The position numbers were made by a program, and so were the translations under genes. This document shows positions 1 to 63,998 of a stretch of 64,000 nucleotides of DNA, one piece after another (position 1 is the stretch's first letter; every line of letters starts with the position of its first letter). Location: the IMG/VR virus record IMGVR_UViG_3300002835_000026. One strand, 5' to 3'. The stretch comes from a virus. Under the pieces are notes generated by a model. That model saw only the letters and a list, made by a program, of their open reading frames with translations, was not told the origin of the DNA and ran no database searches.

Positions 1-918
1 TGTTGAGTTATAATTTTGATCTTGATCTCCAAGTACTTTAGCTACATAGTTAACAGCAAACGGATCTAATGATAATCCAGTCCAAGTTTCTAATACAATT
101 GGATTATTTGTATTATCATTACCTTGACGAATTAATAAACTAAATGTTCCCGATGCTGTATCTGCGTTTGAGATTTGATATCTAATGTTATCTGCTGAAC
201 CTGAAGCTAATGAACCACTTACATCTATTGATGAAGAACTGTTCATAATAATACCTTCAGATAATGTTTTTAAAACAAATGCTGGAGTAGTTGAATTTAC
301 AATATCAGTAGCAGCTAATGTAGCAACTACGTTACCAACTGTTCCGATTGAACCTGATAAGAATGTAAATGTATCACCAATATTATATCCTGTACCTGCT
401 GTTGTAGCTGTAATACTAGTTACTAATGAACCACTAGTTTTAACAATACTAAATACTGCTCCTGCTCCTGTTGTACCTGAGTAAATGTAACTACCTGTAG
501 CTAAACTACCTGTTGTACCTGAAACTGATGCTGTTGAGTTAGTAGAAATGTTACTTAAAGCAGAACCTGTTTCTAATACTCCACTTTCTACATTATTTAA
601 AATTGCTGTACTAGTTGCTGGTGTCCAAGTGTTACTTGCACTTACTACTCTAGCTACTAATAATGATGTACCACCATTGTTAAAGTAGTTATAAGCAGCA
701 ATTGAAGTAAAGAATGATACATTATCACTACCACTTTGGAATCCTGCACCAAATTTATTTACGTAATCGCTGTATGAGGTAACAACAGTTGGAATTTCAA
801 CGGGACCTAAAACTGTAGGACCGATAATTGCTGCACCTACGTTAACTGGTTGTTGTCTGATAAACGATGAATCGTTTTCTCTTGCTAATACACCAGGGGA
901 AATTAATGTTTCTGCCAT
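1..918 (-). CDS. Contractile tail sheath protein (T4 gp18-like), N-terminal part; runs off the window's left edge
   Basis: Manual translation from ATG at 918 gives MAETLISPGVLARENDSSFIRQQPVNVGAAIIGPTVLGPVEIPTVVTSYSDYVNKFG...AYNYFNNGGTSLLVARV, the typical sheath N-terminus (SPGV..E, GP...P, FG, YF.NGG). Absent from the ORF track because it is truncated. Confidence 0.9.
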   Translation of the reverse strand, partial: MAETLISPGVLARENDSSFIRQQPVNVGAAIIGPTVLGPVEIPTVVTSYSDYVNKFGAGFQSGSDNVSFFTSIAAYNYFNNGGTSLLVARVVSASNTWTPATSTAILNNVESGVLETGSALSNISTNSTASVSGTTGSLATGSYIYSGTTGAGAVFSIVKTSGSLVTSITATTAGTGYNIGDTFTFLSGSIGTVGNVVATLAATDIVNSTTPAFVLKTLSEGIIMNSSSSIDVSGSLASGSADNIRYQISNADTASGTFSLLIRQGNDNTNNPIVLETWTGLSLDPFAVNYVAKVLGDQDQNYNST

Positions 919-946
919 GTTATTTGTTAATAAGTTTAATGTTTAT

Positions 947-955
947 TATAAATAT
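947..955 (-). promoter_or_regulatory. Putative late promoter motif ATATTTATA upstream of the sheath gene
   Basis: The same motif recurs upstream of about 10 minus-strand genes (see findings). Confidence 0.6.
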
Positions 956-972
956 ATTAAGGAATCTTAAAA

Positions 973-1224
973 TCATTCGTTTCCGATGAATTCTCCACTA
1001 TCTATATTAATAGTTCCTACACCGTATTTTGATTGAAGTTCTTGACTTAATTTTAATTCTGTTATTTTAATTTCTTTAAGTTCTTCAGTTACTTCTTGCT
1101 TTTGTAATTTTAAATCTTGGATTGACATTTCAATTAATCCGTATTTATCAATTAATTCAGCTCTTAATTTTTGAATTTCTTTTACTGATAAAACTTCAGA
1201 TTCTGTTAATTTTTCTATTTTCAT
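973..1224 (-). CDS. Small coiled-coil hypothetical protein (83 aa)
   Basis: Heptad-rich K/E/L sequence ending KYGVGTINIDSGEF; in operon orientation. Confidence 0.7.
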   Translation of the reverse strand: MKIEKLTESEVLSVKEIQKLRAELIDKYGLIEMSIQDLKLQKQEVTEELKEIKITELKLSQELQSKYGVGTINIDSGEFIGNE

Positions 1225-1243
1225 GACTTTTATATTATTTTAA

Positions 1244-2170
1244 TTATGATGGGTTAGCGTTACTTAATGTTGTACTTATTGAGTATATTATACCTTGTAC
1301 TTCTGTATTAAACCAAATAGTGGCGGTGCCCGGGGTGTTTGGATTAGTTAATCGTATAGCAAATTTACCACTTGAATCTGTTACAGCATGATTAATTGAA
1401 CCTGAGTTTGCTATAGGTACAATATTACTACCTGAAACTACTAAATAAGTAACAGTTCCTGATGCTTGTTGGGCGGATCCAGTTTCTACAGTACTAGTCC
1501 ACCAATGTATTAATTGTTGTGGTTGTGTTAATGGTGAACTATCTGGGTTTGAAAATGTAGCTGTAATTGCTCTTTGAGCTGTTGTTGAACCACTTACTGC
1601 TAAACTACAACTTACAAGTGCTGATAAACCTGATATACCTGAAAGACCTGAAAGACCTGATAAACCTGAGCGACCTGAGGTACCGGATAAACCTGATATT
1701 CCTGATAAGCCTGAAATACCTGAACGACCGGAGATGCCTGATCCCGCTACTAATGCCCATGAACTTGGTGATTCAGATGGAGAAGCATCTGAATTATTGT
1801 TTAATGCTATATAAGAATTACCGCCTGATGAAACTATATCATTAATTTGATAATTTGTAACACTACTCCAAGCACCTTCCCAAATTAATCCTATACCTGA
1901 TAAGCCTGAGCGACCTGAAATACCACTTATACCAGATACAGTTGGAGTAGCAGCAAATGATGCTGTTAAAGCATATGAAGCTGAAACTGCGTTAGAAGAA
2001 GTAGCATTCAATGTACCATTCATATTTAATGAACCTGTGACAGTTAATGAACCACTTATTGTTATATCATAAGCTACTGTACCTGTTAAGGCATCAATAG
2101 ATTGAGTTATTTGAGCTGCTTGTACAGTTGCGCCAGTTGCTATACTCGCACTAGATAAAGTTAATGCCAT
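1244..2170 (-). CDS. Short fibre/structural protein with Gly-X-Ser repeats and one Trp/Tyr-rich module
   Basis: SGISGLSG repeats flank GLIWEGAWSSVTNYQINDIVSSGGNSYIAL...W, the same module found in the giant fibre. Confidence 0.75.
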   Translation of the reverse strand: MALTLSSASIATGATVQAAQITQSIDALTGTVAYDITISGSLTVTGSLNMNGTLNATSSNAVSASYALTASFAATPTVSGISGISGRSGLSGIGLIWEGAWSSVTNYQINDIVSSGGNSYIALNNNSDASPSESPSSWALVAGSGISGRSGISGLSGISGLSGTSGRSGLSGLSGLSGISGLSALVSCSLAVSGSTTAQRAITATFSNPDSSPLTQPQQLIHWWTSTVETGSAQQASGTVTYLVVSGSNIVPIANSGSINHAVTDSSGKFAIRLTNPNTPGTATIWFNTEVQGIIYSISTTLSNANPS

Positions 2171-2183
2171 TTAATAGTTTTAT

Positions 2184-2192
2184 TATAAATAT
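2184..2192 (-). promoter_or_regulatory. Putative late promoter motif ATATTTATA
   Basis: 13 nt upstream of the ATG at 2170. Confidence 0.55.
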
Positions 2193-2199
2193 GGAAAGA

Positions 2200-2229: not shown

Positions 2230-2259
2230 ATAAATATCATATTATAAGTAAATAATATA

Positions 2260-3029: not shown

Positions 3030-6000
3030 TTAAAATTTATTTTTTCTTAATTCTATCAACTCTTCTAATTTATATTCATTTTCTTCTACTGGCCAATCAT
3101 ATAGTGTACTATCTATACCTTTATGTAACACACCACCAGGTACACATAATATAAAATTTTGTTTTCCTTGAGCACCTGGTGATTTAGGATTCCAATATGT
3201 TAATTCCCAATCTAAACCTGCGTTCCAAGATGAATTAACTTGTGGATTATTATGTTGACTATCTAAATGAATAGGCATCATATCTTTAATATCTTTAGCT
3301 CGCATAACCATATGTCCTGCTCTACATGATCCTTTTACACATAAATTTCCAAATTGAGTTTCAAGCCATCCTAATTCACCATGTTCTTTACTCATATAAC
3401 CTGTAGCTACATATCTATCAGGATAAGTATTTAATATATCACAATATGTACTTATTGGTTCATTAAATAAATTGTCTTGATCTGTAAACTGAATAAAATC
3501 ATAATCATCAATATTCATGTTATCAAACATTTGAAGCATAGCTCCTCGTTGACCCATATTAAATTCTGAACTATACACTGTAAAATTATTATTTATATTT
3601 TCATTAATAACTTTTAATATTTCTTCTTTATTCTCTGGATTTGAGTTATCAACAATATAAATGTCATTTATAATACCTGGTTCTTGGATATCTTTTAATG
3701 AATTAATAATATTTTTAATATGGTGAGATCTATTAAATGATGTTAATAAAGTAAGTACTTTAGTTGGTTTAAGTAATTTAGGTAAAATATTAATTTCAAA
3801 ATCATTAGCTATTTTTTCCCAAGAATAATTTTCTCTAACATAGTCTGAATTTTCTTTTAGTACTCCACTTTTAACAATTGAATCATAATTATCATAAATA
3901 TGTTTCATATGTTTTATTAAATCTTTAACATTTGGCTCACCCCATTCTCCTTTAAACCATGGATGATTTTTAACTGATACTGATTTAGTAGAAACATTAT
4001 AGTATCTATCTTTAATTAATTCAGTTGAACCTGGTTCTGATGTAGCTATAGTTGGTAAACCACAAGCTATAGCTTCTAATATAGTCATTCCAAATGAATC
4101 ACCCCTAGATGGATAAACATAAGCATGACAACTTCTATATAAGTCCATTACTTTATCATGTCCATCATTACTAATATGCCAAAATATATTTTTATGATCT
4201 TTTATAATATTTTTTACTTCTTGACTATTGTAAAATAACATAGAGTCATTTGACTTAATGTGTAATTCTACATTATTATTATTTTTAAATAAATCAATAA
4301 AAGCTTCTAAAGTATGAAATATACCTTTTCTGTCTGAACATTCTCCTACATATAAGAACTTAAATTTGTCTTCTTTAATTTTAGGAGTATAAGTGAATAC
4401 TTTAGGATCAATACCATGAGGTACTACAAATATAGGTTTAGTAACACCCATATTTTGTATTCTTGTTTTTGATATATTAGATGGTGTTAATAAAAAATCA
4501 GCTTTATTCCCATTAACTACAAAATTACCAGCTTCATCTGTTGTGTCAACACCAGTATAAACTACTTTAGTTTTAAATTCATCTAAATGACCTATTGAAT
4601 CCGGATAAGCAAACATAATACCTAAATCAGTATTTAATGGCTTTTTTAATAAATTATGAACTAATTGATTTTTTGTTTCTGTTACTCCAATAATAGGTTT
4701 ACAAGCTAAATTTATGTTATTATCTAATTGTTCTAATAAACGTTGAGATAAAATTCCCATTGATGCATAATCATCATATTTAGCTAACCAAGTTAATTTA
4801 GGTTTATTATTAGCAATAATATTAGCTGTTTTATTATTAGTTAATGATTTAATTAAAGTATCAATATTCATACTTGGTGTACATTCATATACATGAGCTA
4901 CTTTAATTATTTCTTCATCAAATCTAATTTTTTCAAATTCATCTCCTGAATGGTTAACTATAATAATTACTTCATCTAAGTTTAAGTGCTTTTGAATATC
5001 TTTATAAGGTAAATCTTTTAATACTTTTACTTGAGTAGAATCCATTAACTTTTTACATTTACTTAAATTATATTTTACTATACCTGATGTTTTGTCTGGT
5101 TCTAATAATTTAAATGACTCTCCTTGTTTATGGATTAAAGGAAATGTAACTCCTGGATTCCATTGGTTATTATCCATATAACAAATATATCCTAAATTAT
5201 AGCCATTATTTTGTACTCTGTAAGATATTTCAACATCATCTGAGTAGCCTAATCCAAATCCTTCATCTAATAAGCCTATTTTATTTATCACTGATTTTCT
5301 AATTACTGAGCAGCAACCTAAAATATAATCACCTACTTTAACAGGACCTATAAGACCATTACTTTTATCTTTAAGTAAAGGTAATAATAATTCTTCCCAA
5401 TTTGAATGTAAATTAGCATCACTATTTAAACACATTATGTTTTCATTTTTAGCTAATTTAAAAGCTTCATTTACTGCTTTTACAAAACCTAATGCTTCTT
5501 TTTTAATATATAATTCAATTATAGGATTAGTAGCAGCAAATGCTTCTAATTTTTTATTTCCTTCTTCTTCAGTTCCGTTAGAATAAAGAATTACTTGGTT
5601 AATTATAGTTGATGTACCTAAAGTAATATTAACATTATTAATAGTATCATCTACATTATTATAAATAGGTACTACTAAAGTTAAATCAGGTTTATCTTCT
5701 TTTTTTTTTGAATAATCAATATAACCTATACCAGCAAATCCTCCTTTATTATATGTAAATTCATAAAAGAAAGGTAATGATTTTTGATCTAAAAATTGAG
5801 TATAAATAAATTCTACAAATCCGTATTTTTCTTTTAATTCTTCCCAGAATGTAGAAACAAAACAATTTGCTTCTCTATGGAAGTAACTATTGATAATATC
5901 ATGAAATCCTACTAATGCCGTAGGTGCTAAGAATTTTTCATATAATTCAAAATCACCTTTAACTCCTTCATAAGTATGATCACCATCAATAAATAAGAAA

Positions 6001-7178
6001 TCTATTTTTTGACCATTTAGTAATTCTTCTACTCTATCAATTAAATAAGAATCTTTTGAATTACCATTAACTGCGTAGAATTTTTTATTATATAAATTAG
6101 CTTGTTCTAAAGCGTCTGATATTACATATGTTCTTTCTTCAAAACCTTGACCACCATGAATTCCAATTGGATAATCAACACTAATAACAGTTTCAACTGA
6201 TGGTAATTCTAACCATCTAGATAATGTACCTCCATTAGCTGTACCAATTTCTACTACTACTTTAGGTTCATGTCTTGCGACAGTTAATTGTAAATTTTCA
6301 ATTTCTAAAGCAATTTGCATTGAACCTTCTTTTCTTAATTTAGATTGAAGCTTTAATGGTAATCTATTAAATGTATTTCTAAAGAAAATTTCATGTCTAT
6401 AAAATTCTATAGGAAACTCATCTGATATTTCTTTATAGTGTTTAGTAGGACACTCTGGTCTTTCAAAAATATCAGTACCATTGTATATACGTTGTTTAAT
6501 TTTTTCTAAATTAGAATATTCAGGTGTGTTATATTCTCTATGAGAAAAATTTAAAATTTTAGTTTGTATTTTTTCTGGTGTCATAAAAAATGATAAATGA
6601 TATCCTCCATTTTCTATATTAGGGCAATTAAAAGCATATTGTCTTAAATCATTAAACATGTTAACTTCTTTTAAAGTACTATTATTTATCCCTACAGAAG
6701 CAAAACAATCTATTAATAATTCAGTTAATGGAGAATAATAAAAAGTTTTCATTTTAAATGAGACCGCTTCTAATGTTTTATCTTTTACAATATTCCAAGC
6801 GTTATCAAATAATTCTTTTTTAGGAAATTCGTCAACTCCTGAAAGAAGAATAAAGCAATCATCATCTGATATTTCTAATGCTTTTTTTCGTAGACATTCT
6901 ATTTGTTGTATTTCTAAATGCCATTTGTCTTCTATACTTTTATTTAAATCATCTTCTGTTGGTTCATACACAACATAATGAATTTTATCTTTATACTCAT
7001 CAAATAGATAACTATTTGAAGAATATGTTAATTCTTTAAGATTACCTGTTGTTGTTCTTGTACTTTCAGCTATAACAAAATATTCAACTGAGTCATTTAG
7101 ATAATCTAATCTCATTTTTAACATTTCTAATTCATCATTGAAAAGAAAAGTATCAATTACTTTATAATTTTTATTCAT
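3030..7178 (-). CDS. Multidomain glycosylation enzyme: GT17-like + class I SAM methyltransferase + GT2-like + GT4-like + GT-A-like
   Basis: DTFLFNDELEMLKMRL..FVIAES (GT17-like); VVEIGTANGG and FLFIDGDHTYEGVKGDF (Methyltransf_24-like); LVVPIYN..CLNSD..GYSDDVE (GT2); HGIDP..FLYVG..RKG..YVYPSRGDSFGMTILEAIACGLP (GT4); LLTSFNR..IVDNS..FTDQD (GT-A). Confidence 0.85.
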   Translation of the reverse strand: MNKNYKVIDTFLFNDELEMLKMRLDYLNDSVEYFVIAESTRTTTGNLKELTYSSNSYLFDEYKDKIHYVVYEPTEDDLNKSIEDKWHLEIQQIECLRKKALEISDDDCFILLSGVDEFPKKELFDNAWNIVKDKTLEAVSFKMKTFYYSPLTELLIDCFASVGINNSTLKEVNMFNDLRQYAFNCPNIENGGYHLSFFMTPEKIQTKILNFSHREYNTPEYSNLEKIKQRIYNGTDIFERPECPTKHYKEISDEFPIEFYRHEIFFRNTFNRLPLKLQSKLRKEGSMQIALEIENLQLTVARHEPKVVVEIGTANGGTLSRWLELPSVETVISVDYPIGIHGGQGFEERTYVISDALEQANLYNKKFYAVNGNSKDSYLIDRVEELLNGQKIDFLFIDGDHTYEGVKGDFELYEKFLAPTALVGFHDIINSYFHREANCFVSTFWEELKEKYGFVEFIYTQFLDQKSLPFFYEFTYNKGGFAGIGYIDYSKKKEDKPDLTLVVPIYNNVDDTINNVNITLGTSTIINQVILYSNGTEEEGNKKLEAFAATNPIIELYIKKEALGFVKAVNEAFKLAKNENIMCLNSDANLHSNWEELLLPLLKDKSNGLIGPVKVGDYILGCCSVIRKSVINKIGLLDEGFGLGYSDDVEISYRVQNNGYNLGYICYMDNNQWNPGVTFPLIHKQGESFKLLEPDKTSGIVKYNLSKCKKLMDSTQVKVLKDLPYKDIQKHLNLDEVIIIVNHSGDEFEKIRFDEEIIKVAHVYECTPSMNIDTLIKSLTNNKTANIIANNKPKLTWLAKYDDYASMGILSQRLLEQLDNNINLACKPIIGVTETKNQLVHNLLKKPLNTDLGIMFAYPDSIGHLDEFKTKVVYTGVDTTDEAGNFVVNGNKADFLLTPSNISKTRIQNMGVTKPIFVVPHGIDPKVFTYTPKIKEDKFKFLYVGECSDRKGIFHTLEAFIDLFKNNNNVELHIKSNDSMLFYNSQEVKNIIKDHKNIFWHISNDGHDKVMDLYRSCHAYVYPSRGDSFGMTILEAIACGLPTIATSEPGSTELIKDRYYNVSTKSVSVKNHPWFKGEWGEPNVKDLIKHMKHIYDNYDSIVKSGVLKENSDYVRENYSWEKIANDFEINILPKLLKPTKVLTLLTSFNRSHHIKNIINSLKDIQEPGIINDIYIVDNSNPENKEEILKVINENINNNFTVYSSEFNMGQRGAMLQMFDNMNIDDYDFIQFTDQDNLFNEPISTYCDILNTYPDRYVATGYMSKEHGELGWLETQFGNLCVKGSCRAGHMVMRAKDIKDMMPIHLDSQHNNPQVNSSWNAGLDWELTYWNPKSPGAQGKQNFILCVPGGVLHKGIDSTLYDWPVEENEYKLEELIELRKNKF

Positions 7179-7187
7179 TTTATATTT

Positions 7188-8036
7188 TTAATTATCATGG
7201 ATATTATTTAATTCTATTACACTATTATTTAAATGGTATTTTTTAATAGATTCACTTGTTGATAAAAATCTTTCAGAAAATCTATCTCCTCGTCTAGGTT
7301 CTATTATAATTTTTTCTCTATTTGGATATAAATCATTAGCTACATCTATCATACTTCTACTATGTCCTGAATTAACTATAAATCGTGATTTATTAGGATA
7401 ATTCATAGTATATATAATTAAACCTATAGCTTCTCCTAATGATATAAAATGTCTTTGGCATGTAGGAGCTACTTTAATTGGAGAATCTAGAGATAATGAA
7501 TTCCATATTTCAAATACATTTCCTGATGATTCAACAACATTAAAAAATCGAGCTATACTTCCTCCATTATTTAATACCATTCGTTCCGCTATTAATTTTG
7601 AAGCTCCGTATACAATTTCAGGATTACAAGATTTACAAGTAGAAGTTAATATAATTTTACAATTAAGAGGCATACAATCTATTAAATTTTTTGTTCCTAT
7701 AGTATTAATAGATAAAGTTTCCCAAGTTTCATGTTCACCTTTAGGAGCATGTTTCGCTCCAGCAATATTAATAATAATATTAGGTTGAAATTTATTTAAT
7801 ATTGTTTTGACTTGATTAAAATCAGTTATATCCATATACTCCATATCTCCTTCTATATCAGTAGCTAAATAAGATACTTTATCTTTATCAAATTTTTTAC
7901 AAAGTGCAGTTCCTATACTTCCATTAGCTCCTGTAATAAGAATTTTTTGTTTTTTATTTTTTAATTTAATATTAAGTAAATCAATATATTGATTTCGTCC
8001 TAATACTTTTTCTACATCATTATAACTTATTTTCAT
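7188..8036 (-). CDS. NAD-dependent nucleotide-sugar dehydratase/epimerase (CapD/Polysacc_synt_2-like)
   Basis: ILITGANGSIG Rossmann motif, AGAKH, YGASK, RFFNVVESSGNV, R.GD. Confidence 0.85.
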   Translation of the reverse strand: MKISYNDVEKVLGRNQYIDLLNIKLKNKKQKILITGANGSIGTALCKKFDKDKVSYLATDIEGDMEYMDITDFNQVKTILNKFQPNIIINIAGAKHAPKGEHETWETLSINTIGTKNLIDCMPLNCKIILTSTCKSCNPEIVYGASKLIAERMVLNNGGSIARFFNVVESSGNVFEIWNSLSLDSPIKVAPTCQRHFISLGEAIGLIIYTMNYPNKSRFIVNSGHSRSMIDVANDLYPNREKIIIEPRRGDRFSERFLSTSESIKKYHLNNSVIELNNIHDN

Positions 8037-8646
8037 CTGTTAAAAAATTAAATTTAATTATTAAATTATTTAAATATTCTTTATTTATATTATTTCTTTC
8101 TAAACCTATAGTATTTTCTTTTAAAAATCTAGATGGAGATCCTATGTAAATATTTCCAGGTTCAATTTTAGAATTTTTAGTTACAATTGTTCCCATTCCT
8201 ATCATAGAATAAGCTCCTATTATTTTAAATTGATGACATATACTTCCTAATCCCATATTTACTCCTTCCATTATGTAACTATGCCCTCCTATTAATACAT
8301 TACAAGATAAATTAACTTTATTTTCTATAATAGAATCATGACCAATATGACTATTTCTTAATATAATAGTATTATTTTTTAATATTGTATTTCTTATTGT
8401 GCCTGCGTTTATAGTTACAAATTCTCTAACTATATTATTATTACCTATAATAACATTAAACGCACTATTAGTAAAATAATCTCTATGTTCTGGTGGTGTA
8501 CCTATAGAACAATAGGCTTCAAATCTATTATTATCTCCTATTATAGTATCTCCTGTAATGTAACAATAAGGACCAATATAATTATTTTCTCCTAAAGTAA
8601 CATTTTCTCCTATAATAGCTGTAGGATGTATTAAATTATTTTTCAT
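8020..8646 (-). CDS. Left-handed beta-helix acyl/acetyltransferase, LpxA-like
   Basis: IHPTAII hexapeptide repeats; IGNNNIVREFVTINAGT, HIGHD, GGH and HQF match LpxA signature positions. Confidence 0.8.
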   Translation of the reverse strand: MKNNLIHPTAIIGENVTLGENNYIGPYCYITGDTIIGDNNRFEAYCSIGTPPEHRDYFTNSAFNVIIGNNNIVREFVTINAGTIRNTILKNNTIILRNSHIGHDSIIENKVNLSCNVLIGGHSYIMEGVNMGLGSICHQFKIIGAYSMIGMGTIVTKNSKIEPGNIYIGSPSRFLKENTIGLERNNINKEYLNNLIIKFNFLTDENKL

Positions 8647-9943
8647 TTATAATTTTTAAAACGTTTTCTAATTTAATTAAATTCATACATTCTTTTCTTT
8701 CTGGTTGTTGTAGGTCCATCCACCATCTTCTATTGTAATAATTTTTACCACAATTTTTTTCAATATATTTCACTCCAGGATGTTTAGCATGGTTATTATA
8801 GAATGGGGTTAAACAAATACCTACATTTGGTTTAACAGAAGAAGCAAAATGATGAAAAAATGTATCTACACTTAACCATAAACTTGATTCATCTATTAAT
8901 CCTGCTAACTCTGCTATTGATTTATCTAAAAATTTACTATCTACTCCACCAGGAGAAAATGACATTGGGAATTGATTATCATTACTTGAACCTACTTGTA
9001 TAACATGATATCCTAATTTTTTTAACTCAAATATTAAATTAAACCACCTAACTTCAACCCAGTCTTTATTTGAATCTTGATTTTGGATTCTAGCTGCTGA
9101 AGGGCAGATTAATACTAATGGTTTACCGGTTGTGTTTTCAAATTTAATTTTAGGACCTGTATAATTTAATATATCTTGAGATTCTCGATTTTCTCTATAC
9201 ATTTTAAAAAATGCTTCTATAATTGTAGGAGAATTATGAGCTGATCCATAAGAATAAACAAATTTTTTATATCCTCCAAATAATTCATCATTCCAAGATA
9301 TAAAACCTTTAATATTAATATGTTCTAAAGCAAATGGATAAATACAAGATACATAACAATCTTTACCTATTTTTTCTAATAATGGGTACGCCATAACATG
9401 ATCTCCTAATCCACCATCAACATGTATTATTCTTTCATAAAATAATGGATTAATTATTTTTTTATTATATCTTTCTGAGTCTGGTGTATTATCAGATGTA
9501 AAAGGGTATTTAGTTTTTTGAGTAATTAAATCTGCTATAAACCACCTTATAGATTGATATTTGGTATCATGATTAAGGTATAATAAATCACTAGTTTTTG
9601 CTAATAAATAAGTATTATTCAATGTATCCCACTCTTTAACGCCAAAATAACCATCATTTTCATCTATCAATAAACAATACTCTGTTTCAATGTTATATAT
9701 AAGTTCTATAGTAGATTGAAGTATATTACTTAAAGTAGGGTTAATAAAATAACTATGATAAGCTAAAGTTGTTAATTTATTTAGTAAATTTTGATTAGTC
9801 CAAGGAGTATATCCCTTACAATTAATTTGTAAAGTTTTAATTTGGGATTTAATTGGATCATTATGTAATTTATCTAATAAAGATATTAGTTTTTCTTCAT
9901 TTTCTGTATGAATTATAACTGTTATTTCTTTTTGTAACTCCAT
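8636..9943 (-). CDS. GT9 (heptosyltransferase-like) glycosyltransferase, paralog 1
   Basis: GGLGDHVMAYP, K.W...W, VIQVG, LAGLI...SVDTFFHHFASS. Confidence 0.8.
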   Translation of the reverse strand: MELQKEITVIIHTENEEKLISLLDKLHNDPIKSQIKTLQINCKGYTPWTNQNLLNKLTTLAYHSYFINPTLSNILQSTIELIYNIETEYCLLIDENDGYFGVKEWDTLNNTYLLAKTSDLLYLNHDTKYQSIRWFIADLITQKTKYPFTSDNTPDSERYNKKIINPLFYERIIHVDGGLGDHVMAYPLLEKIGKDCYVSCIYPFALEHINIKGFISWNDELFGGYKKFVYSYGSAHNSPTIIEAFFKMYRENRESQDILNYTGPKIKFENTTGKPLVLICPSAARIQNQDSNKDWVEVRWFNLIFELKKLGYHVIQVGSSNDNQFPMSFSPGGVDSKFLDKSIAELAGLIDESSLWLSVDTFFHHFASSVKPNVGICLTPFYNNHAKHPGVKYIEKNCGKNYYNRRWWMDLQQPERKECMNLIKLENVLKIINEK

Positions 9944-9944
9944 T

Positions 9945-11279
9945 TTAGCTATTAGTTTTTAGTTTTATAGCTTTTAATATATCATCTACTTGGATTAGTT
10001 CTAAACTTTCTTTTCTTTCTGGTTGTTTAAAGTCAAATAACCATCTTCTATTATGATAGTTTTTACCACAATCTTTTTCTATATAAGTTACTTTAGGATG
10101 TTTTACATAATCATTATAAAAAGGAATTAAACAAATTCCTGTCTCTGGTTTTATTGAAGCTGCAAATGGATGTAAAAAAGTATCTACTGTTATCCATAAA
10201 CTGGCTTCTTCAATTAATCCTGCTAATTCAGGAATAGATTTATCTAAAAATTTTTCATCTACACCAGCTTGACAATAAGGAGAATTAGAATCAAATGATA
10301 ATGGGATTTGGTCATCTTTATGTGAACCGGTTTGAATAACATGATAACCTAATTTTTTTAATTCAAATATTAAATTAAACCATCTAACATCAACCCAATT
10401 TTTATTAGATTCAAATCCTTGTACTCGTGCTGCTGTGTTGCCTACTAAAACTATAGGTTTGCCTGATATATTATTGTATTTAATTTTTGGGCCGTTATAT
10501 TTCATAACGTCTGTTTTTTCTTTTGGTATATTATACATTTCAAATAATGCATTTACTAAATTGGGTAAATCATTTACTAAACCATAATCATAAATAAATC
10601 TATGATATCCTCCAAATAAATCATCATTCCAATCAATTAAACCCTTAGTGTCAATATGATCTAAAACAAATGGGTATATACTACTAACAAAACACTTTTT
10701 TCCTATTTTTTCTAATAGTGGATATGCCATAACATGGTCACCTAATCCACCATGTACATGAATTATTCGTTCATAAAATAAAGGATGATCTATTTTTTTA
10801 AAATATCGTTCTGAATCTGAGGTGTTATCTAGATTAAATTTATGCCTTGTTTTTTGACTAATTAAATCTGCTATAAACCATGTTATATGTTGGTAATTAG
10901 TGTCTTGATTACAGTGTAATAAATCCGTAGTTTTCGCTAATAAATAGGTATTATTAAGTATATCCCATTCTTTAACGTTAAAACATGTATTAGATTCATC
11001 TATTATTAAAACATAATTAGTTTTAATTTTATAAATAAGATCTATAAGAGATAATACAGGTGATGATGAGGTTGGTTGTATACTATAAAAAGAACTAGTA
11101 AGTGTTGATATTTTATCTAGTATAGTTGGATTAGTCCAAGGAGTAATACCTTTACAATTAACTTGTAAAGTATTAAATTGAGACTTTAAGGGATGTTGAT
11201 GTAATTGATTTAATAAAGTTAATAACTTAGTTTCATTCTCTGTATGAATGATAACTGTTATTTTATCATTTTTGGTCAT
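9945..11279 (-). CDS. GT9 (heptosyltransferase-like) glycosyltransferase, paralog 2
   Basis: GGLGDHVMAYP, KNWVDVRW, TVDTFLHPFAAS; collinear with the adjacent paralog. Confidence 0.8.
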   Translation of the reverse strand: MTKNDKITVIIHTENETKLLTLLNQLHQHPLKSQFNTLQVNCKGITPWTNPTILDKISTLTSSFYSIQPTSSSPVLSLIDLIYKIKTNYVLIIDESNTCFNVKEWDILNNTYLLAKTTDLLHCNQDTNYQHITWFIADLISQKTRHKFNLDNTSDSERYFKKIDHPLFYERIIHVHGGLGDHVMAYPLLEKIGKKCFVSSIYPFVLDHIDTKGLIDWNDDLFGGYHRFIYDYGLVNDLPNLVNALFEMYNIPKEKTDVMKYNGPKIKYNNISGKPIVLVGNTAARVQGFESNKNWVDVRWFNLIFELKKLGYHVIQTGSHKDDQIPLSFDSNSPYCQAGVDEKFLDKSIPELAGLIEEASLWITVDTFLHPFAASIKPETGICLIPFYNDYVKHPKVTYIEKDCGKNYHNRRWLFDFKQPERKESLELIQVDDILKAIKLKTNS

Positions 11280-11337: not shown

Positions 11338-12057
11338 TTAATTAAATTCAAATCTCCATTTAAATCCACCACCAGTTGATCCTGTAAATGAAGCAGTTGG
11401 TTCAGGACCTTGGGCCGCGTAATTAAGATTATAAGTAGTACCGTCGAGGATTGGGTTTATATTAAATATAGTTTGTTCTCCATTACCATCATTTGCATCA
11501 CAGAGTCCACGCATACTTCCAGTTAATACACTTCTATAATCACAATAAAAATCTAAAGTCCAATAACAATTTTGAACATTAGGTGTTTGATCTGTAGATA
11601 ATAATAGTGGACCAATAATATTAAGTCCTGGACCATTAAGATCTGCTTGGTAATCTGAAACTAAAGTAGTTGTTGTAAGTGAATCTGTAATTTTAAAAGT
11701 TACATCAGTTATAGTATCTGATCCTCCAAATAATACATCAATATCATATTGTACACTGTAATTAGGGAAAACACCTGGATCATTACCTTCACAGGTTCCT
11801 AGTAAATCATAAAATTTTCCAAGAGATTGAGTAGTATTTTGTTGTCTAGTACCACATAATCTATTAGCATAATTATAAGATCCACTAGAACCCCAACCTG
11901 TATAAGGATATGTATTATTACCATATGGTCCTTTAGGCCATGATTCTTTCATAAAAACACTAGCTGACACGTTAGTACCAGGAGTTAATCCTAAATTTGC
12001 TGAGTCAAGTACATCATTATATGAAATTGTACTTCCTGAAGATGGCGTTACTCCCAT
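11338..12057 (-). CDS. Fibre-associated protein (possible tip/adhesin)
   Basis: Directly downstream of the fibre gene; N-terminus MGVTPSSGSTISYNDV resembles small proteins that follow S74-containing fibres; rich in G/S/T/Y. Confidence 0.55.
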   Translation of the reverse strand: MGVTPSSGSTISYNDVLDSANLGLTPGTNVSASVFMKESWPKGPYGNNTYPYTGWGSSGSYNYANRLCGTRQQNTTQSLGKFYDLLGTCEGNDPGVFPNYSVQYDIDVLFGGSDTITDVTFKITDSLTTTTLVSDYQADLNGPGLNIIGPLLLSTDQTPNVQNCYWTLDFYCDYRSVLTGSMRGLCDANDGNGEQTIFNINPILDGTTYNLNYAAQGPEPTASFTGSTGGGFKWRFEFN

Positions 12058-21000: not shown

Positions 21001-22628
21001 GTACCATTTAATCCACTTAAACCTGATGTACCTTCAAGACCTGAAAGACCTGAAGTTCCGTTTGTACCGGATAAACCACTTAGACCTGAAGTTCCAGTGC
21101 CACTTAAGCCTGATAAACCACTTGTGCCTTCTAAACCACTTAGACCTGAAGTACCATTTGTACCACTTGTTCCTGATAAACCTGAGAGACCTGATGTACC
21201 AGTACCACTTAATCCACTTAGACCAGATATACCTTCTAAACCTGAAAGTCCTGAGGTACCATTTGTTCCTGATAAACCTGAAAGTCCTGAGGTACCATTT
21301 GTACCATTAGTTCCTGAGAAACCACTTATACCAGATAAACCACTTATACCTTCTAAGCCACTTATACCTGATGTACCAATTGTACCACTTAATCCACTTA
21401 TACCTGAAGTTCCAGTTCCACTAAGACCTGAAAGACCAGATGTACCTTCTAAACCAGATAAACCTGATAAGCCTGATAAGCCTGATAAGCCTGATAAACC
21501 AGTTCCTGAAAGACCAGATAAACCTGAGGTTCCAGTACCACTAAGACCTGAAAGTCCTGAAAGTCCTGTTCCACTAAGACCAGAAATTCCTGATGTACCT
21601 TCTAAACCTGATAAACCTGAAATTCCGTTTATACCTGATAAACCGCTTAAACCAGAAGTGCCAGTACCACTTAAACCTGAAAGTCCTGATGTACCTAATA
21701 TGCCACTTAGACCTGATGTACCTTCAAGACCTGAAAGACCGGATGTACCATTTGTTCCTGATAAACCTGAAAGTCCTGAAGTACTAGTACCACTAAGACC
21801 TGAAAGACCAGATGTACCTTCTAAGCCTGAAAGACCAGATGTACCATTAGTACCATTAGTACCTGAAAGACCTGAAAGTCCTGATATACCTGTACCACTT
21901 AGGCCTGATAAACCACTTAAGCCTTCTAAACCTGAGAGTCCTGAGGTACCATTTGTACCATTAGTTCCTGATAAACCACTTAGACCTGATGTACCAGCTC
22001 CTGACAAACCAGATAAACCTGAAGTTCCAGTACCACTAAGACCTGAAAGTCCTGATAAACCTTCTAAACCAGAAAGACCTGAAGTTCCATTAGTTCCTGA
22101 AAGACCGCTCAAACCAGAAGTTCCTGTTCCACTTAAACCACTTAGACCTGAAGTTCCTGTACCACTTAAACCAGATAAACCACTTATACCTTCTAAACCT
22201 GATAAACCTGAGGTACCATTAGTTCCTGATAAACCGCTTAATCCTGAGGTGCCAGTTCCACTTAATCCTGATAAACCTGAAGTGCCAGTACCACTTAAAC
22301 CTGATAAACCTTCTAAACCTGAAAGTCCTGATGTACCATTTATTCCTGATAAACCACTTATACCAGATGTTCCAGCGCCACTTAGTCCTGAAATACCTGA
22401 TGTACCTGTTCCTGATAAACCTGAAATACCTGAGGTGCCAGTACCACTTAAGCCTGAAATACCTGAGGTGCCAGTACCACTTAAACCTGAAAGACCTGAT
22501 AAACCTGAAAGTCCAGATGTACCAATTCCACTACTACCTCCTGAAGTAGGTACTTCAAAAGAAGCTATAGATACTTGATCTAAAAATCGTACATTGTTTC
22601 TTGGTATGGAGTTATTGATTCTGGCCAT
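12060..22628 (-). CDS. Giant fibre protein (3522 aa): Gly-X-Ser repeats, 8 Trp/Tyr-rich CBM-like modules, C-terminal Peptidase S74 intramolecular chaperone
   Basis: Nearly continuous (G-[LITA]-S)n; modules GLIW.G.W/Y...Y..ND/N.V.Y.GSSYI...P...YW; C-terminal [20 protein letters not shown]...[31 protein letters not shown]. Confidence 0.9.
12620..22530 (-). repeat. 9-nt-periodic coding repeat (Gly-X-Ser), including near-perfect 126-bp and 72-bp tandem units
   Basis: cctga/ccact recurs every 9 nt on the + strand; a 126-bp unit starts at 12721, 12847 and 12973; a 72-bp unit repeats around 14240-14480. Confidence 0.95.
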
Positions 22629-61988: not shown

Positions 61989-61993
61989 ACCTC

Positions 61994-62025
61994 ATATTAT
62001 ACGAAAGAATGGTTAAAAAGCCAAA
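61994..62025 (-). promoter_or_regulatory. Bipartite promoter TTTGG-N19-TATAATAT upstream of primase
   Basis: Conserved motif and spacing. Confidence 0.6.
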
Positions 62026-62484
62026 CTATAGTGTAAAGTCCTTAGTAAAGAACTTACCTAATATATTATCATTATAGAATGATTCTGGGTGTTCTAATAC
62101 TTTATATGTAAATAAGGCTTGTGTTTCGTAGTAAGTTAGTAATTTTTTATTAGGTGCTAATTTAATTATAGTGCGAGTGAACAAATCTTGTTTACCGTCT
62201 TTAATTAATTGCATTACTTCTTTATTAGAGCCGTAATATGTTTCCCAATCTGATTCTTTGGTTATTATTTTAGTAGTTGGTTTACGGCCAACACCAGTTA
62301 ATTCGGCTACTTCTTTTTTACCTAATTTTACTTTTTTATTATGGTATAATACTTTTTTACCTATATAAGATTTATTAGTATCAGTATTTTTAACTATATA
62401 AATAAATCCAAATGTATCTTTAGGAAAATCGTTGAGGTTAGTGATGGGTTTACTATTGTAAACCCAAGTTGGTAATGTTAACAT
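62026..62484 (-). CDS. GIY-YIG-family nuclease
   Basis: GFIYIVKN......YIGKK, YYGS, F.R.II, E, YNDNI. Confidence 0.75.
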   Translation of the reverse strand: MLTLPTWVYNSKPITNLNDFPKDTFGFIYIVKNTDTNKSYIGKKVLYHNKKVKLGKKEVAELTGVGRKPTTKIITKESDWETYYGSNKEVMQLIKDGKQDLFTRTIIKLAPNKKLLTYYETQALFTYKVLEHPESFYNDNILGKFFTKDFTL

Positions 62485-63488
62485 TATCTGTCTAAATTAA
62501 TTAATATTGTTGTATCTGTAGTAGGTGATACAGGTAAGGGTTGGGATAGTTTTCCTACTGCTAATAAGTTTTGATTTTCATCATATAAACCTACTGTTGT
62601 TACATAAGGTGAAAAATAAGAACCTGTTACGTTATCTGTTAAATATTGTCCTGGAGTAAAGAAAGTACCCATTGAACTTGATATTAATGTACTACCTGAG
62701 GATAAACTTGGATTTTGAGAAAAATTAAATTCATTTTCTCTCATTGTACATTTATATTGTGTTTCATATATTTTATATGAACTAGAGAATGAACAAGTTA
62801 TATTGCTACCAGTAACATATTCTAAAATTGAAGTATTATCTCCTGCTTGACCACCATAAAGTGTATTACCATAAGTTACAAATCCATATCCTATAGGATT
62901 AGAAGTTGTAATAGTTATAAGTCCTTGATAATAAAATATATTACCTATAATTTCTAAGTTTTCATCTATTATATTACCTTCTCCATCATCTGTTATGCTA
63001 CCACTAGGTGTAGTATAAACAAATGACTTAGGTTGAATATAATCTCCAAATAAACGTGAAGGAATAGATATAACACCTATAATATCATTTGAACCTGTAG
63101 GAAAATATCTTTGGTAAGTTAATGTAGTTTGTAAGTAGTTAAAATAGTTAGGTGTTTGTGTGGTACCAACATATCTATCTCCTGCTGTATCAGCTCCAGG
63201 TATTAAACTAGCTGTATTTACATTATCACCATAACTTGAACTTAAGTAGTTTGTATAATATAATTCTTTAATTGAATTATATACTAAACTTTGATATTGA
63301 GTTGATACTTGTCCTGTTGTAGGAGCAGAAGCAAGATTAAAAGCTCCTGTTATATTAGTTCCTAAAAATCTATCAATTCCAACACCAGAAGCAGTTAATG
63401 CGGCTGCTCCCTCGAAGTTGAATGCTTTATTCACTTCGAAGGGAGTTACTACGATATCAGATGCTAAAAATTGTTTGTAAGCGCCCAT
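62484..63488 (-). CDS. Tail/baseplate-type structural protein
   Basis: DDGEGN, GNIFY..G, ENEFNFSQNPS, PYVTTVGLYDENQNLLAVGKLSQP; [ST]GS-rich. Confidence 0.6.
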   Translation of the reverse strand: MGAYKQFLASDIVVTPFEVNKAFNFEGAAALTASGVGIDRFLGTNITGAFNLASAPTTGQVSTQYQSLVYNSIKELYYTNYLSSSYGDNVNTASLIPGADTAGDRYVGTTQTPNYFNYLQTTLTYQRYFPTGSNDIIGVISIPSRLFGDYIQPKSFVYTTPSGSITDDGEGNIIDENLEIIGNIFYYQGLITITTSNPIGYGFVTYGNTLYGGQAGDNTSILEYVTGSNITCSFSSSYKIYETQYKCTMRENEFNFSQNPSLSSGSTLISSSMGTFFTPGQYLTDNVTGSYFSPYVTTVGLYDENQNLLAVGKLSQPLPVSPTTDTTILINLDR

Positions 63489-63491
63489 TCA

Positions 63492-63998
63492 TTAGAAATC
63501 TAATTTTACTCTAATAAGAGCTTCTTTTGTAAAGTCTTTTAATAATGGTCTAGATAATTTTGCTACCGCTAATAATTCGTTAGTATCGTTATATAAACCT
63601 ACTGTTGTAATGTAAGTTTGTGGGTTATTAATAAATGAAGGATATAATACCTCACCTGTTGAACCTGAAATGAATGATGGATTTTCTGAGTAATTAAATT
63701 CTGCACTTCTAGGTCTTACAAATATAAAATCTGAAGTAATTGTTTCTTGAGAATTAATTGTAAATGTAGCGGCTGTTGAACCACTTATGGCTCTATATAA
63801 TTTTTGATTATTACTACCTGTTGAATTTGATACTATACTATAATTTAATCCAATACCACCTGAAGCTACTGAGCCACTTAATGCTGCTGGGTTTAATAAA
63901 ATAGTTCCAATATCTGGTAATAACCAACCATATGAACCTGAGTTTAAACTAAATCCATCAGTTGTTGTAGATGCTGTAGTTACTTTAACACCTGCTGA
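63492..63998 (-). CDS. C-terminal part of a paralogous structural protein (start outside the window)
   Basis: Manual translation ends ...EFNYSENPSF...YITTVGLYNDTNELLAVAKLSRPLLKDFTKEALIRVKLDF*, paralogous to the C-terminus of 62484..63488. Confidence 0.75.
   Translation of the reverse strand, partial: SAGVKVTTASTTTDGFSLNSGSYGWLLPDIGTILLNPAALSGSVASGGIGLNYSIVSNSTGSNNQKLYRAISGSTAATFTINSQETITSDFIFVRPRSAEFNYSENPSFISGSTGEVLYPSFINNPQTYITTVGLYNDTNELLAVAKLSRPLLKDFTKEALIRVKLDF

What the first reader, a model, noticed from the sequence alone, without database searches (positions are those of the whole stretch)
1..63998. [S/T]-G-S and [S/T]-A-S tripeptides enriched in predicted exterior virion proteins: a possible virion-wide modification sequon
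Seen: I count 8 [ST]GS in the first 306 aa of the sheath. They are also frequent in the 308-aa mini-fibre, the MCP insertion (TGS, SGS, SAS, TAS), the 74-aa and 144-aa structural proteins and both proteins at 62.5-64 kb. They are scarce in portal, terminase, scaffold and the 42-60 kb block. The giant fibre is made almost entirely of S-G-x-S. Inference: a surface-restricted short motif beside a phage-encoded multi-glycosyltransferase operon could be the acceptor signal for O-glycosylating the whole particle. Glycosylation of capsid and tail by phage-encoded GTs has precedent in some mycobacteriophages.
Basis: partly seen in the sequence, partly recalled or inferred. Interest (0 to 1): 0.8.

Follow-up and report, generated by a model that had tools for sequence, protein, structure and literature searches.

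The report
Ser/Thr-Gly-Ser tag on outer virion proteins
The outward-facing head, sheath, neck and fibre proteins of this uncultured aquatic T4-like phage and its whole lineage carry the ordered tripeptide Ser/Thr-Gly/Ala-Ser about four times more often than chance, usually where a beta-strand runs out into a loop; this may mark where a phage-made sugar coat attaches, but no chemistry shows it and the sugar-transferase operon next door is not the enzyme that goes with it.

Summary
Outside the giant fibre, [ST]-[GA]-S occurs 61 times against 24-27 expected. The excess survives 12-residue local shuffles and a dipeptide-preserving null (p≈9e-9). It is order-specific and needs Ser at position 3. 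Eight proteins hold 51 of the 61 sites. Their orthologues are enriched across the clade, while tail tube, portal, protease and terminase almost never carry the motif. T4 shows none (6 vs 18.8). The enriched segments are not homologous to each other (hhalign ≤2%). In a good capsid model, 47% of sites begin on the last residue of a beta-strand (background 7-10%).

The adjacent GT block occurs only in the window's sub-clade, next to collagen-like fibres, and relatives without it keep the motif. A separate soluble GT4/GT2 sugar island is found in every relative whose contig is at least 83% complete and reaches it. Among cultured phages it is confined to this MCP lineage. The giant fibre is a collagen-like G-X-Ser protein with only one motif.

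Best reading: an acceptor or recognition tag for cytoplasmic O-glycosylation of the particle surface (about 0.42). The main rival is a lineage-specific strand-exit structural idiom (about 0.33). The scan has noted the same motif before on other aquatic T4-like phage DNA.

The parts
1..918 (-). Tail sheath, N-terminal 306 aa (gene runs off the window start); 11 [ST][GA]S sites at residues 62-254
   Evidence: Across 82 orthologues there are 921 sites vs 217 expected. All sites lie in residues 21-385 of the 665-aa orthologue and none in the conserved C-terminal 280 aa. S239-G-S241 is invariant in 38 sequences.
1244..2170 (-). 308-aa mini-fibre with an N-terminal ISGSLTVTGS...SASYALTAS module, a collagen-like stretch and a CBM5/12-like module; 9 sites
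   Evidence: The same N-terminal repeat module occurs in G002 and immuto fibres.
3030..7178 (-). 1382-aa soluble fusion protein: GT17-like, Methyltransf_24, GT2 and GT4 domains; accessory, sub-clade-specific
   Evidence: Pfam, NCBIfam, no TM segments. Homologues found only in close relatives next to collagen-like fibres.
7188..8036 (-). PseB/Polysacc_synt_2-like nucleotide-sugar 4,6-dehydratase (282 aa)
8020..8646 (-). Left-handed beta-helix acyl/acetyltransferase (LpxA-like and NeuD/PglB/VioB-like, 208 aa)
8636..11279 (-). Two tandem GT9-like (heptosyltransferase C-lobe) paralogues, 435 and 444 aa, 63% identical
   Evidence: No TibC-type four-Cys iron finger. Absent from five near-complete relatives.
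11338..12057 (-). 239-aa protein of unknown function between the fibre and the GT block; 6 sites vs 0.65 expected
   Evidence: No Pfam or PHROG family.
12060..22628 (-). 3522-aa giant fibre: collagen-type G-X-S/T repeats, interspersed CBM5/12-like modules and a C-terminal S74 chaperone. It does NOT carry the motif (1 vs 112 expected).
24034..25254 (-). gp13-like neck / head-tail adaptor; 1 site in this copy, but 83 vs 27.8 over 39 orthologues
25264..25698 (-). 144-aa Ser/Thr-rich protein next to the neck gene; 3 sites. Its family is the most strongly enriched ([ST]GS 91 vs 12.7 in 25 orthologues).
   Evidence: The immuto orthologue has 4 vs 0.7.
26670..28346 (-). T4-type major capsid protein (558 aa); 5 sites in the insertion domain (residues ~139-302, DNA 27441-27932) and 1 in the N-terminal region
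   Evidence: AF2 model pLDDT 80.7, best fold match T4 gp23, strand-exit placement.
32163..32387 (-). 74-aa all-beta Ser/Thr-rich protein in the head module; 3 sites; family 80 vs 14.7
62484..63488 (-). 334-aa protein of unknown function; 7 sites vs 1.1. Paralogue of the next gene; in G002 its orthologue lies in a block of motif-rich large proteins.
63492..63998 (-). C-terminal 168 aa of a paralogous protein (gene runs off the window end); 6 sites vs 0.9
   Evidence: The G002 orthologue (72% identical) has 10 vs 2.1.

Best explanation
The ordered tripeptide [S/T]-[G/A]-S, usually preceded and followed by hydrophobic residues and placed where a beta-strand exits into a loop, is a tag that has been selected independently in many unrelated outward-facing virion domains: capsid insertion domain, outer sheath domains, neck, small Ser/Thr-rich proteins, and fibre and baseplate-region proteins. 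The lineage is a large group of aquatic T4-like phages. The most likely reader of the tag is a phage-encoded, soluble, cytoplasmic O-glycosylation system. I propose that the lineage-core island (a ~480-aa and a ~435-aa GT4, a ~210-aa GT2, and nucleotide-sugar dehydratase, aminotransferase, methyltransferase and kinase genes) builds a short modified glycan on the Ser or Thr hydroxyls of subunits or assembled particles, giving the virion a sugar coat. The GT block inside the window is an accessory cassette of one sub-clade. It more probably serves the neighbouring collagen-like G-X-Ser fibres or elaborates the glycan. Shown here: the enrichment, its order- and Ser-specificity, its exterior restriction, its lineage distribution, the lack of homology between carriers, the strand-exit placement in the capsid protein, and the presence and soluble nature of the GT genes. 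Inferred: that any sugar is attached, which residue is modified, and which enzyme does it.
For: (1) The motif is specific: 61 vs 24-27 expected under three nulls, permutations and [ST]G-T at expectation, G-S dipeptide only 1.2x. Known sequons (D-[ST]-[AILVMT], N-x-[ST], S-[GA]-[GA]) are not enriched. (2) Exterior versus interior contrast across the clade: MCP 567/140, sheath 921/217, 144-aa 100/21.7, 74-aa 80/14.7, neck 83/27.8; against tail tube 0/8.3, portal 1/24.7, protease 1/16.3, terminase [ST]GS 0/13.3. In the complete relative G002 the same orthologues plus the fibres carry the excess (215 vs 72 genome-wide). (3) The folds do not require it: T4 virion proteins have 6 vs 18.8, with gp18 at 1/1.3 and gp23 at 0/0.7. 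A jumbo sister clade shows ratios near 1. (4) The carriers are not homologous to each other (hhalign probability <=2% for all pairs), so the enrichment is convergent. (5) Sites turn over while the count is kept: 51 sheath alignment columns carry the motif, and only 2 of them in >=80% of sequences. MCPs stay near 3x down to 32% identity. (6) Position 2 interchanges G/A/S within a column and position 1 interchanges S/T, while position 3 stays Ser. This is not what a glycine-dependent turn would show. (7) A core glycan island is present in all relatives >=83% complete whose contig reaches it. Its GT4 occurs among 50,697 phage records only in the same MCP lineage. Its best solved relative is the chlorovirus GT B736L. 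Neither the island nor the window block has membrane proteins, a flippase or an initiating transferase. (8) Precedent for the geometry: TibC modifies Ser, not Thr, at strand-exit sites flanked by small residues on a beta-helix (PMC4358343).
Against: There is no chemical evidence of any modification. The co-occurrence of motif and core GT4 is vertical inheritance in one lineage, effectively one evolutionary event. LR756508 has a GT4 homologue (27% identical) but no enrichment around its capsid genes (15 vs 14). The regular strand-exit placement (47% vs 7-10% background), several near-invariant sites (sheath S239-G-S241; MCP S-A-S at 195, which lies in a predicted helix) and the motif's place inside periodic fibre repeats are what a structural motif would also show. 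GT-B homology does not separate protein from DNA acceptors; B736L also matches T4 DNA glucosyltransferases in HHpred (PMC6024577). The enrichment does not depend on the adjacent operon. Several 'exterior' carriers (74-aa, 144-aa, 239-aa, 334-aa, 168-aa) have no established location in the virion.
Confidence: 0.42

Rival explanations
1. This is a purely structural idiom. [S/T]-[G/A]-S is a lineage-specific way of ending a beta-strand and starting a turn, or of forming a rung in trimeric fibre repeats, in the fast-evolving outer domains. Nothing reads or modifies it. The GT islands act on something else: phage DNA, host envelope precursors or only the collagen-like fibres.
For: 47% of 545 MCP motif instances start on the last residue of a predicted strand, against 7-10% background. 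Some sites are invariant over more than 50% sequence divergence. In fibres the motif belongs to periodic repeats, ITGSLxVTGS...GFTGSLxGTAS and tandem [ST]ASY[AV] about every 9 residues. LR756508 has the GT4 homologue without capsid-region enrichment. No acceptor is known for any of the GTs.
Against: The homologous T4 sheath and capsid folds lack the motif entirely. The carriers are unrelated in sequence, so many domains would have had to converge on one tripeptide with no common reader. Beta-rich interior proteins of the same phages (tail tube 0/8.3, portal 1/24.7) do not use it. Position 2 tolerates Ala and Ser, so a glycine-specific backbone conformation is not required. Thr, the better strand former, is not accepted at position 3.
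Confidence: 0.33
2. The tripeptide is a tag read by something other than a glycosyltransferase. It could be another post-translational modification (for example phosphorylation, acylation or ADP-ribosylation by a packaged or late enzyme), or a docking site for a decoration or assembly factor or for an environmental ligand.
For: Everything that points to an external reader also fits here: convergent enrichment in unrelated outer domains, exterior restriction, absence from T4. The imperfect match between GT4 presence and enrichment in LR756508 also fits.
Against: No candidate enzyme or binding partner was found whose distribution tracks the motif. The only lineage-restricted candidate found is the glycan island. 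Hydroxyl residues flanked by small residues are typical O-glycosylation contexts (PMC4358343).
Confidence: 0.12
3. The window's adjacent GT operon glycosylates the whole particle through this motif.
For: The operon lies co-directionally inside the late structural block between the fibre and sheath genes. It encodes soluble GTs, a methyltransferase and sugar-modifying enzymes.
Against: Homologues of the block occur only in close relatives and are always flanked by collagen-like fibre genes. Relatives that run from the baseplate-side gene to the sheath without it remain enriched, e.g. 13 vs 3.0 and 11 vs 2.5. The GT9-like genes are absent from five near-complete relatives.
Confidence: 0.06
4. 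It is a composition or chance artefact: Ser/Thr/Gly-rich outer domains produce the tripeptide by composition alone.
For: The carriers are rich in S, T, G and A.
Against: The excess persists under per-protein, 40-, 20- and 12-residue block shuffles and a dipeptide-preserving null. Permuted tripeptides of the same composition are at expectation. It is reproduced in 80 MCPs, 82 sheaths and 54 diverse MCP representatives.
Confidence: 0.02

Closest known systems
Virion glycosylation of mycobacteriophages by phage-encoded glycosyltransferases (Freeman et al. 2023, Cell Host Microbe; known to me only through citing papers, e.g. PMC12619734, because the paper itself is not held)
   Same: A tailed phage encodes its own glycosyltransferases, and capsid and tail proteins are the proposed acceptors of O-linked glycans that coat the particle.
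   Different: There the glycans are reported at the C-termini of the capsid and tail-tube subunits (PMC12619734). Here the candidate sites are internal, spread over many outer proteins, and the tail tube has none. No glycan has been demonstrated here. The hosts, phage morphotype and GT families differ.
Bacterial autotransporter heptosyltransferases TibC/AAH acting on TibA/AIDA-I (PMC4358343)
   Same: A cytoplasmic GT-B/GT9-fold enzyme hyper-glycosylates many Ser (not Thr) residues that lie at strand exits flanked by small residues on a beta-rich passenger domain. The window encodes two GT9-like proteins.
   Different: The window's GT9-like proteins lack the four-Cys iron finger, score only marginally for GT9, have no PDB sequence match and are absent from most of the lineage. 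The TibA-type context S-[GA]-[GA] is not enriched.
Autonomous capsid glycosylation of chloroviruses (PBCV-1 Vp54; A064R multi-domain GT/methyltransferase; B736L/A546L) (PMC9614988)
   Same: The virus encodes soluble, cytoplasmic GTs, including a multi-domain GT-GT-methyltransferase fusion, together with sugar-nucleotide enzymes. The best solved relative of the lineage-core GT4 is chlorovirus B736L.
   Different: Chlorovirus glycans are N-linked at unusual Asn sequons. N-x-[ST] is not enriched here. The acceptor of B736L is itself unknown. The host domain and virion architecture differ.
GtfA/GtfB O-GlcNAcylation of serine-rich repeat adhesins
   Same: A tandem pair of GT4-type proteins of about 500 and 440 aa; acceptors rich in S-A-S-type dipeptide repeats; cytoplasmic modification of Ser.
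   Different: There is no specific homology. GtfA (4PQG) matches the core GT4 only at E=0.036, and the GtfA equivalog model does not hit it. The acceptors here are folded outer domains and fibre repeats, not long disordered SRR regions.
Collagen-like glycoproteins such as Bacillus BclA and giant-virus fibrils (own knowledge)
   Same: The giant fibre has G-X-Ser/Thr collagen-type repeats next to a glycosylation cassette. This makes it an alternative acceptor for the window's GT block.
   Different: This concerns the G-X-S repeat, which lacks the [ST]-[GA]-S tripeptide (1 vs 112 expected). It is a separate hypothesis from the virion-wide tag.

Membership tests
Mycobacteriophage-type virion glycosylation | Phage-encoded glycosyltransferase genes | tested here: met
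   Window block 3030-11279. Core GT4/GT2 island in relatives.
Mycobacteriophage-type virion glycosylation | Glycans demonstrated on capsid and tail subunits | not testable with these tools
   Needs glycan staining and mass spectrometry of virions.
Mycobacteriophage-type virion glycosylation | Acceptor region at the C-termini of the capsid and tail-tube subunits (as described in PMC12619734) | tested here: not met
   MCP sites lie at residues 139-302 of 558. The tail tube has 0 sites in 68 orthologues.
Bacterial autotransporter heptosyltransferase (BAHT: TibC/AAH) | GT9-type heptosyltransferase catalytic domain | tested here: inconclusive
   PF01075 scores 24.5 bits against a cut-off of 22, for the C-lobe only. 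NCBIfam heptosyltransferase models score far below cut-off. No PDB sequence hit.
Bacterial autotransporter heptosyltransferase (BAHT: TibC/AAH) | Four-cysteine iron finger (CxxC...C...C) needed for dodecamer assembly and substrate binding (PMC4358343) | tested here: not met
   The Cys residues conserved between the two paralogues are C42, C196, C377/383 and C398/404. There is no conserved CxxC.
Bacterial autotransporter heptosyltransferase (BAHT: TibC/AAH) | Ser-specific acceptors at strand exits flanked by small residues | tested here: inconclusive
   The geometry and Ser preference are similar. The TibA-type S-[GA]-[GA] context is not enriched (0.91x). No modification has been shown.
GtfA/GtfB serine-rich-repeat glycosylation | Specific homology to GtfA (TIGR02918 / PDB 4PQG) | tested here: not met
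   The core GT4 matches 4PQG at E=0.036 only and has no TIGR02918 hit.
GtfA/GtfB serine-rich-repeat glycosylation | Tandem pair of GT-B proteins of about 500 and 440 aa | tested here: met
   476-aa and 432-aa GT1-family genes lie adjacent in G002. The same pair occurs in immuto, G003, G004, G006 and G007.
Chlorovirus-type autonomous virion glycosylation | Soluble virus-encoded GTs with sugar-nucleotide enzymes and no lipid-carrier machinery | tested here: met
   No TM segments, flippase or initiating transferase in the block or the island. A GT-MT-GT-GT fusion is present. The best solved relative of the core GT4 is B736L, E=1e-9.
Chlorovirus-type autonomous virion glycosylation | N-linked glycans on Asn of the major capsid protein | tested here: inconclusive
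   N-x-[ST] is at expectation (0.91x). The linkage type cannot be tested here.
Collagen-like tail fibre with S74 intramolecular chaperone (giant fibre only) | Collagen triple-helix repeats plus a C-terminal Peptidase_S74 domain | tested here: met
   PF01391 E=4e-24, PF13884 E=7e-15, and a CBM_5_12 module at the cut-off.

The most novel reading that the evidence does not exclude
A large, globally distributed lineage of aquatic T4-like phages (470 MCP cluster representatives at E<=1e-30) uses a three-residue code, [S/T]-[G/A]-S at beta-strand exits, to direct a conserved phage-encoded cytoplasmic GT4/GT2 system to coat every outward-facing virion protein with a modified glycan. This would be the first defined O-glycosylation sequon for a virus of bacteria. 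It would also be a bacterial-virus counterpart of the autonomous capsid glycosylation of chloroviruses.
Probability: 0.3. Interest if true: 0.85.

Novelty: new variant of a known kind. Interest (0 to 1): 0.62.

Why it matters
Virion glycosylation by phage-encoded enzymes is so far documented for a few actinobacteriophages, and no acceptor rule is known. If this tripeptide is a sequon, it gives a sequence-readable predictor of which phage surfaces are sugar-coated. That would bear on adsorption, particle stability, grazing and immune recognition, and on engineering glycan display on T4-type capsids. It would also assign a function to the widespread, unexplained glycosyltransferase islands of aquatic phages. 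The hypothesis can be tested at once, because a cultured member exists: Flavobacterium phage immuto has both the GT4 pair and the motif. If the motif proves to be purely structural, it is still an unusual case of many unrelated outer domains converging on one strand-exit tripeptide in a single viral lineage.

Tried and rejected
1. AlphaFold2 model of the sheath (38-sequence alignment) failed: mean pLDDT 47, and below 30 in the motif-bearing region. No sheath mapping was possible.
2. Model coordinates are not exposed, so solvent accessibility could not be computed.
3. A weak GT-D hit of the 445-aa head-module protein (E=0.009) found no support in PDB, and too few orthologues were available. Rejected.
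4. GtfA/GtfB and BAHT membership were tested and not met.
5. G001 looked like a GT4-less relative, but its contig begins inside the island. It is not a valid test case.
6. The T4 late-promoter box TATAAATA is uninformative: 9 on the gene strand against 17 on the other strand.
The converse co-occurrence test could not be run.
8. The fibre repeat module has no matches in cultured phages outside the lineage, with the low-complexity filter on.
9. The 334-aa and 168-aa proteins could not be named.
10. Freeman et al. 2023 is not held, and two literature hits were irrelevant.
11. The shared-domain-ancestry explanation was rejected by hhalign.
12. The apparent depletion in interior proteins at clade level is pseudo-replicated. 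In this window the non-carrier proteins are simply at expectation.

Full report
WHAT THE WINDOW IS. All long ORFs lie on the minus strand. The major capsid protein (26670-28346) is a T4-type gp23 homologue. Its nearest cultured relatives are Flavobacterium phage immuto (55% identity), Microcystis phage Mel-JY01, the uncultured 484-kb phage LR756508 and Rhodothermus phage RM378. IMG/VR holds hundreds of relatives at 66-96% identity. The window is therefore a structural and late region of an uncultured aquatic T4-like myovirus with about 29% G+C.

I translated 64 minus-strand ORFs and compared counts of [ST]-[GA]-S with 2000 shuffles of each protein.
The sheath N-terminus has 8 [ST]GS plus 3 [ST]AS, 11 against 2.25 expected.
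- Other counts: mini-fibre 9/4.3; MCP 6/1.9; 74-aa 3/0.5; 144-aa (25264-25698) 3/0.9; 334-aa 7/1.1; 168-aa fragment 6/0.9.
- An unlisted 239-aa protein (11338-12057) has 6/0.65.
- Outside the giant fibre the total is 61 against 24.2. This stays at 61 against 26-27 when residues are shuffled only within 40-, 20- or 12-residue blocks, and 61 against 26.7 under a dipeptide-preserving null (p=9e-9).
- In an unbiased ranking of all tripeptides, TGS (20/5.9) and SGS (20/6.8) are the top high-count hits.
- The signal is ordered and residue-specific. Every permutation ([GA]S[ST], S[ST][GA] and others) is at expectation, and so are [ST]GT (15/11-12) and TGT (4/5.1).
- The dipeptide G-S is only 1.2x enriched, and x-G-S is enriched only for x = S or T.
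- Flanks are hydrophobic at -2, -1 and +1. Both Ser codon classes are used, so this is selection on protein, not a DNA repeat.
- Known prokaryotic sequons and the generic S-x-S pattern are not, or only barely, enriched.
- Eight proteins hold 51 of the 61 sites (4.1x). The other 55 proteins are at expectation (10/11.5), so 'scarce elsewhere' is true but not a depletion in this window.

THE GIANT FIBRE IS A DIFFERENT THING. The 3522-aa protein consists of collagen-type G-X-S/T triplets (Pfam Collagen, E=4e-24) interrupted by CBM5/12-like modules. It ends in a Peptidase_S74 intramolecular chaperone (E=7e-15). It contains one [ST][GA]S against 112 expected.

THE TRAIT IS LINEAGE-WIDE AND EXTERIOR-ONLY.
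- All 80 MCP orthologues have 4-12 sites against about 1.8 expected (570/142). Almost all sites lie in the insertion domain, at about a dozen recurrent alignment columns.
- All sheath orthologues from 43% to 98% identity are enriched; over 82 orthologues the count is 921/217, and 651/105 for [ST]GS.
- Sheath sites occupy 51 alignment columns. Only 2 of these are conserved in at least 80% of sequences, and none lies in the conserved C-terminal 280 residues.
- Orthogroup sums: the 144-aa family 100/21.7, the 74-aa family 80/14.7 and the gp13-like neck 83/27.8. Against these stand the tail tube 0/8.3 (68 orthologues), portal 1/24.7, prohead protease 1/16.3 and terminase [ST]GS 0/13.3. These sums are pseudo-replicated by shared ancestry and should be read as consistency, not as p-values.
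- In the complete 161-kb relative G002 the genome-wide count is 215/72. The excess sits in the orthologues of the same window proteins and in large fibre or baseplate-region proteins.
- Among 54 diverse full-length MCP representatives (32-68% identity) the ratio stays near 3 in every identity band, but it ranges from 0 to 6.6 individually.

THE FOLDS DO NOT REQUIRE IT. Twenty-seven T4 virion-module proteins have 6 sites against 18.8 expected, with gp18 at 1/1.3, gp23 at 0/0.7 and Hoc at 0/1.0. The signal is graded: immuto 59/27 (sheath 8/2.5, one fibre-like protein 13/1.7), Mel-JY01 23/15 and RM378 14/6. It is about 1 in a jumbo-phage sister clade and in the capsid region of LR756508.

THE CARRIERS ARE UNRELATED. 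Profile-profile comparison (hhalign) covered the MCP insertion domain, two parts of the sheath outer region, and the 144-aa, 74-aa and neck families. Every pair scored a probability of 2% or less, no better than control pairs with the MCP core or the sheath C-domain. The motif has therefore accumulated independently in unrelated sequences. The fibres do share an N-terminal repeat module among themselves.

STRUCTURAL CONTEXT.
- The sheath model failed (pLDDT 47).
- The MCP model, from an 80-sequence diverse alignment, is good (pLDDT 80.7, pTM 0.76), and its best fold matches are T4 gp23 capsids.
- In 47% of 545 motif instances in the clade MCPs (37% in the diverse set), the first residue is the last residue of a predicted beta-strand. 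The background in the same domain is 7% of all residues and 10% of Ser/Thr.
- The typical site is therefore hydrophobic strand - [S/T] - [G/A] - S - loop. One near-invariant S-A-S lies in a short helix.
- Within columns, position 1 interchanges S and T, position 2 interchanges G, A and S, and position 3 stays Ser.
- In fibres the motif sits in periodic repeats: ITGSLxVTGS...GFTGSLxGTAS, and tandem [ST]ASY[AV] about every nine residues.

THE GLYCOSYLTRANSFERASES.
- The window block is real. It holds a 1382-aa soluble fusion (GT17-like, methyltransferase, GT2 and GT4 domains), a PseB-like dehydratase, an LpxA/NeuD-like acyltransferase and two GT9-like paralogues that are 63% identical.
- The block occurs only in the window's close relatives, and there it always lies between collagen-like fibre genes.
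- Relatives that run from the baseplate-side gene straight to the sheath without it keep the enrichment.
- The GT9-like genes are absent from five near-complete relatives. They lack the TibC iron finger.
- A separate island is present in immuto, G002, G003, G004, G006 and G007: two GT4 genes of about 480 and 435 aa, a GT2, DegT aminotransferase, FkbM methyltransferase, GHMP kinase and GDP-mannose dehydratase.
- The one apparent exception, G001, starts inside the island.
- Among 50,697 phage records the larger GT4 is found only in immuto, Mel-JY01, LR756508 and RM378, plus a marginal hit. That is exactly the MCP lineage.
- Its best solved relative is chlorovirus B736L (E=1e-9). GtfA matches only at E=0.036. 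The acceptor of B736L is unknown (PMC9614988), and the fold also matches DNA glucosyltransferases (PMC6024577).
- Neither gene set contains membrane proteins, a flippase or an initiating transferase. This fits a soluble acceptor.
If correct, a different DNA-modification system is already present, although it does not exclude DNA glycosylation.

READING. Several facts argue that something outside the proteins selects for the tag. One ordered tripeptide has risen independently in unrelated domains. It has done so only in outward-facing virion proteins and only in one lineage. Site positions turn over while the count is kept. The only lineage-restricted candidate reader I found is the soluble glycan island, and the site geometry resembles TibC acceptor sites (Ser, not Thr, at strand exits between small residues; PMC4358343).

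I therefore rank phage-encoded O-glycosylation of the particle surface first, at about 0.42. The regular strand-exit placement, the invariant sites, the fibre-repeat context and the GT4-positive but motif-poor LR756508 keep a purely structural idiom close behind, at about 0.33. That operon more likely serves the collagen-like fibres or elaborates the glycan.

The same motif has been noted by this scan on several other aquatic T4-like phage genomes. Those are unverified notes that agree with what I tested here, not independent evidence.

LIMITS. No chemistry is available. The co-occurrence of motif and island is phylogenetically confounded.

Noticed in passing
window 8636-11279: Two tandem GT9-like paralogues (435 and 444 aa, 63% identical). 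Each has an N-terminal ~190-aa domain of unknown family. They have no PDB sequence match and lack the TibC-type iron finger.
   Followed up: partly
window 2694-2960: An 88-aa protein directly downstream of the GT block has a single strong N-terminal hydrophobic segment (KD 3.3). It is the only predicted membrane-type protein near the operon.
   Followed up: no
window 30812-32149: The 445-aa protein in the head-morphogenesis module grazes the GT-D glycosyltransferase fold (PF08759, E=0.009, below cut-off). It has no PDB support, and the gene is poorly conserved among relatives.
   Followed up: partly
window-wide (unbiased tripeptide ranking): The tripeptide RMQ is over-represented (4 vs 0.4), as are CGH (3 vs 0.13), PFA (7 vs 1.3) and DEF (12 vs 3.2).
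   Followed up: no
L179 (phage T4, 75-125 kb): T4 virion proteins are significantly poor in [ST][GA]S (6 vs 18.8 expected). The composition-based baseline for ordinary virion proteins may therefore lie below 1.
   Followed up: no
L180:3-4031 (G002, 1343-aa fibre): This fibre combines the TGS/TAS repeat module with about ten YadA-head-like 'YSHAEG' repeats (PF05658, sub-threshold). It has 57 motif sites against 11 expected.
   Followed up: partly
window 62026-62484: This 152-aa protein matches phrog_447 (annotated NAD synthetase) and, more weakly, homing-endonuclease PHROGs. It sits between the motif-rich 334-aa protein and the upstream block.
   Followed up: no
L207 / G009:172431-172610 and G010:301025-301210: The motif-poor jumbo sister clade has weak GT1-like ORFs of about 455 and 415 aa, one within about 7 kb of the MCP gene. 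These are not detectable orthologues of the core GT4.
   Followed up: no
L086, L088, L091, L097 (close relatives): In close relatives the large GT fusion is much shorter (about 600-880 aa against 1382 aa here), and a second collagen-like fibre replaces the mini-fibre. The GT and fibre cassette is therefore highly plastic.
   Followed up: no
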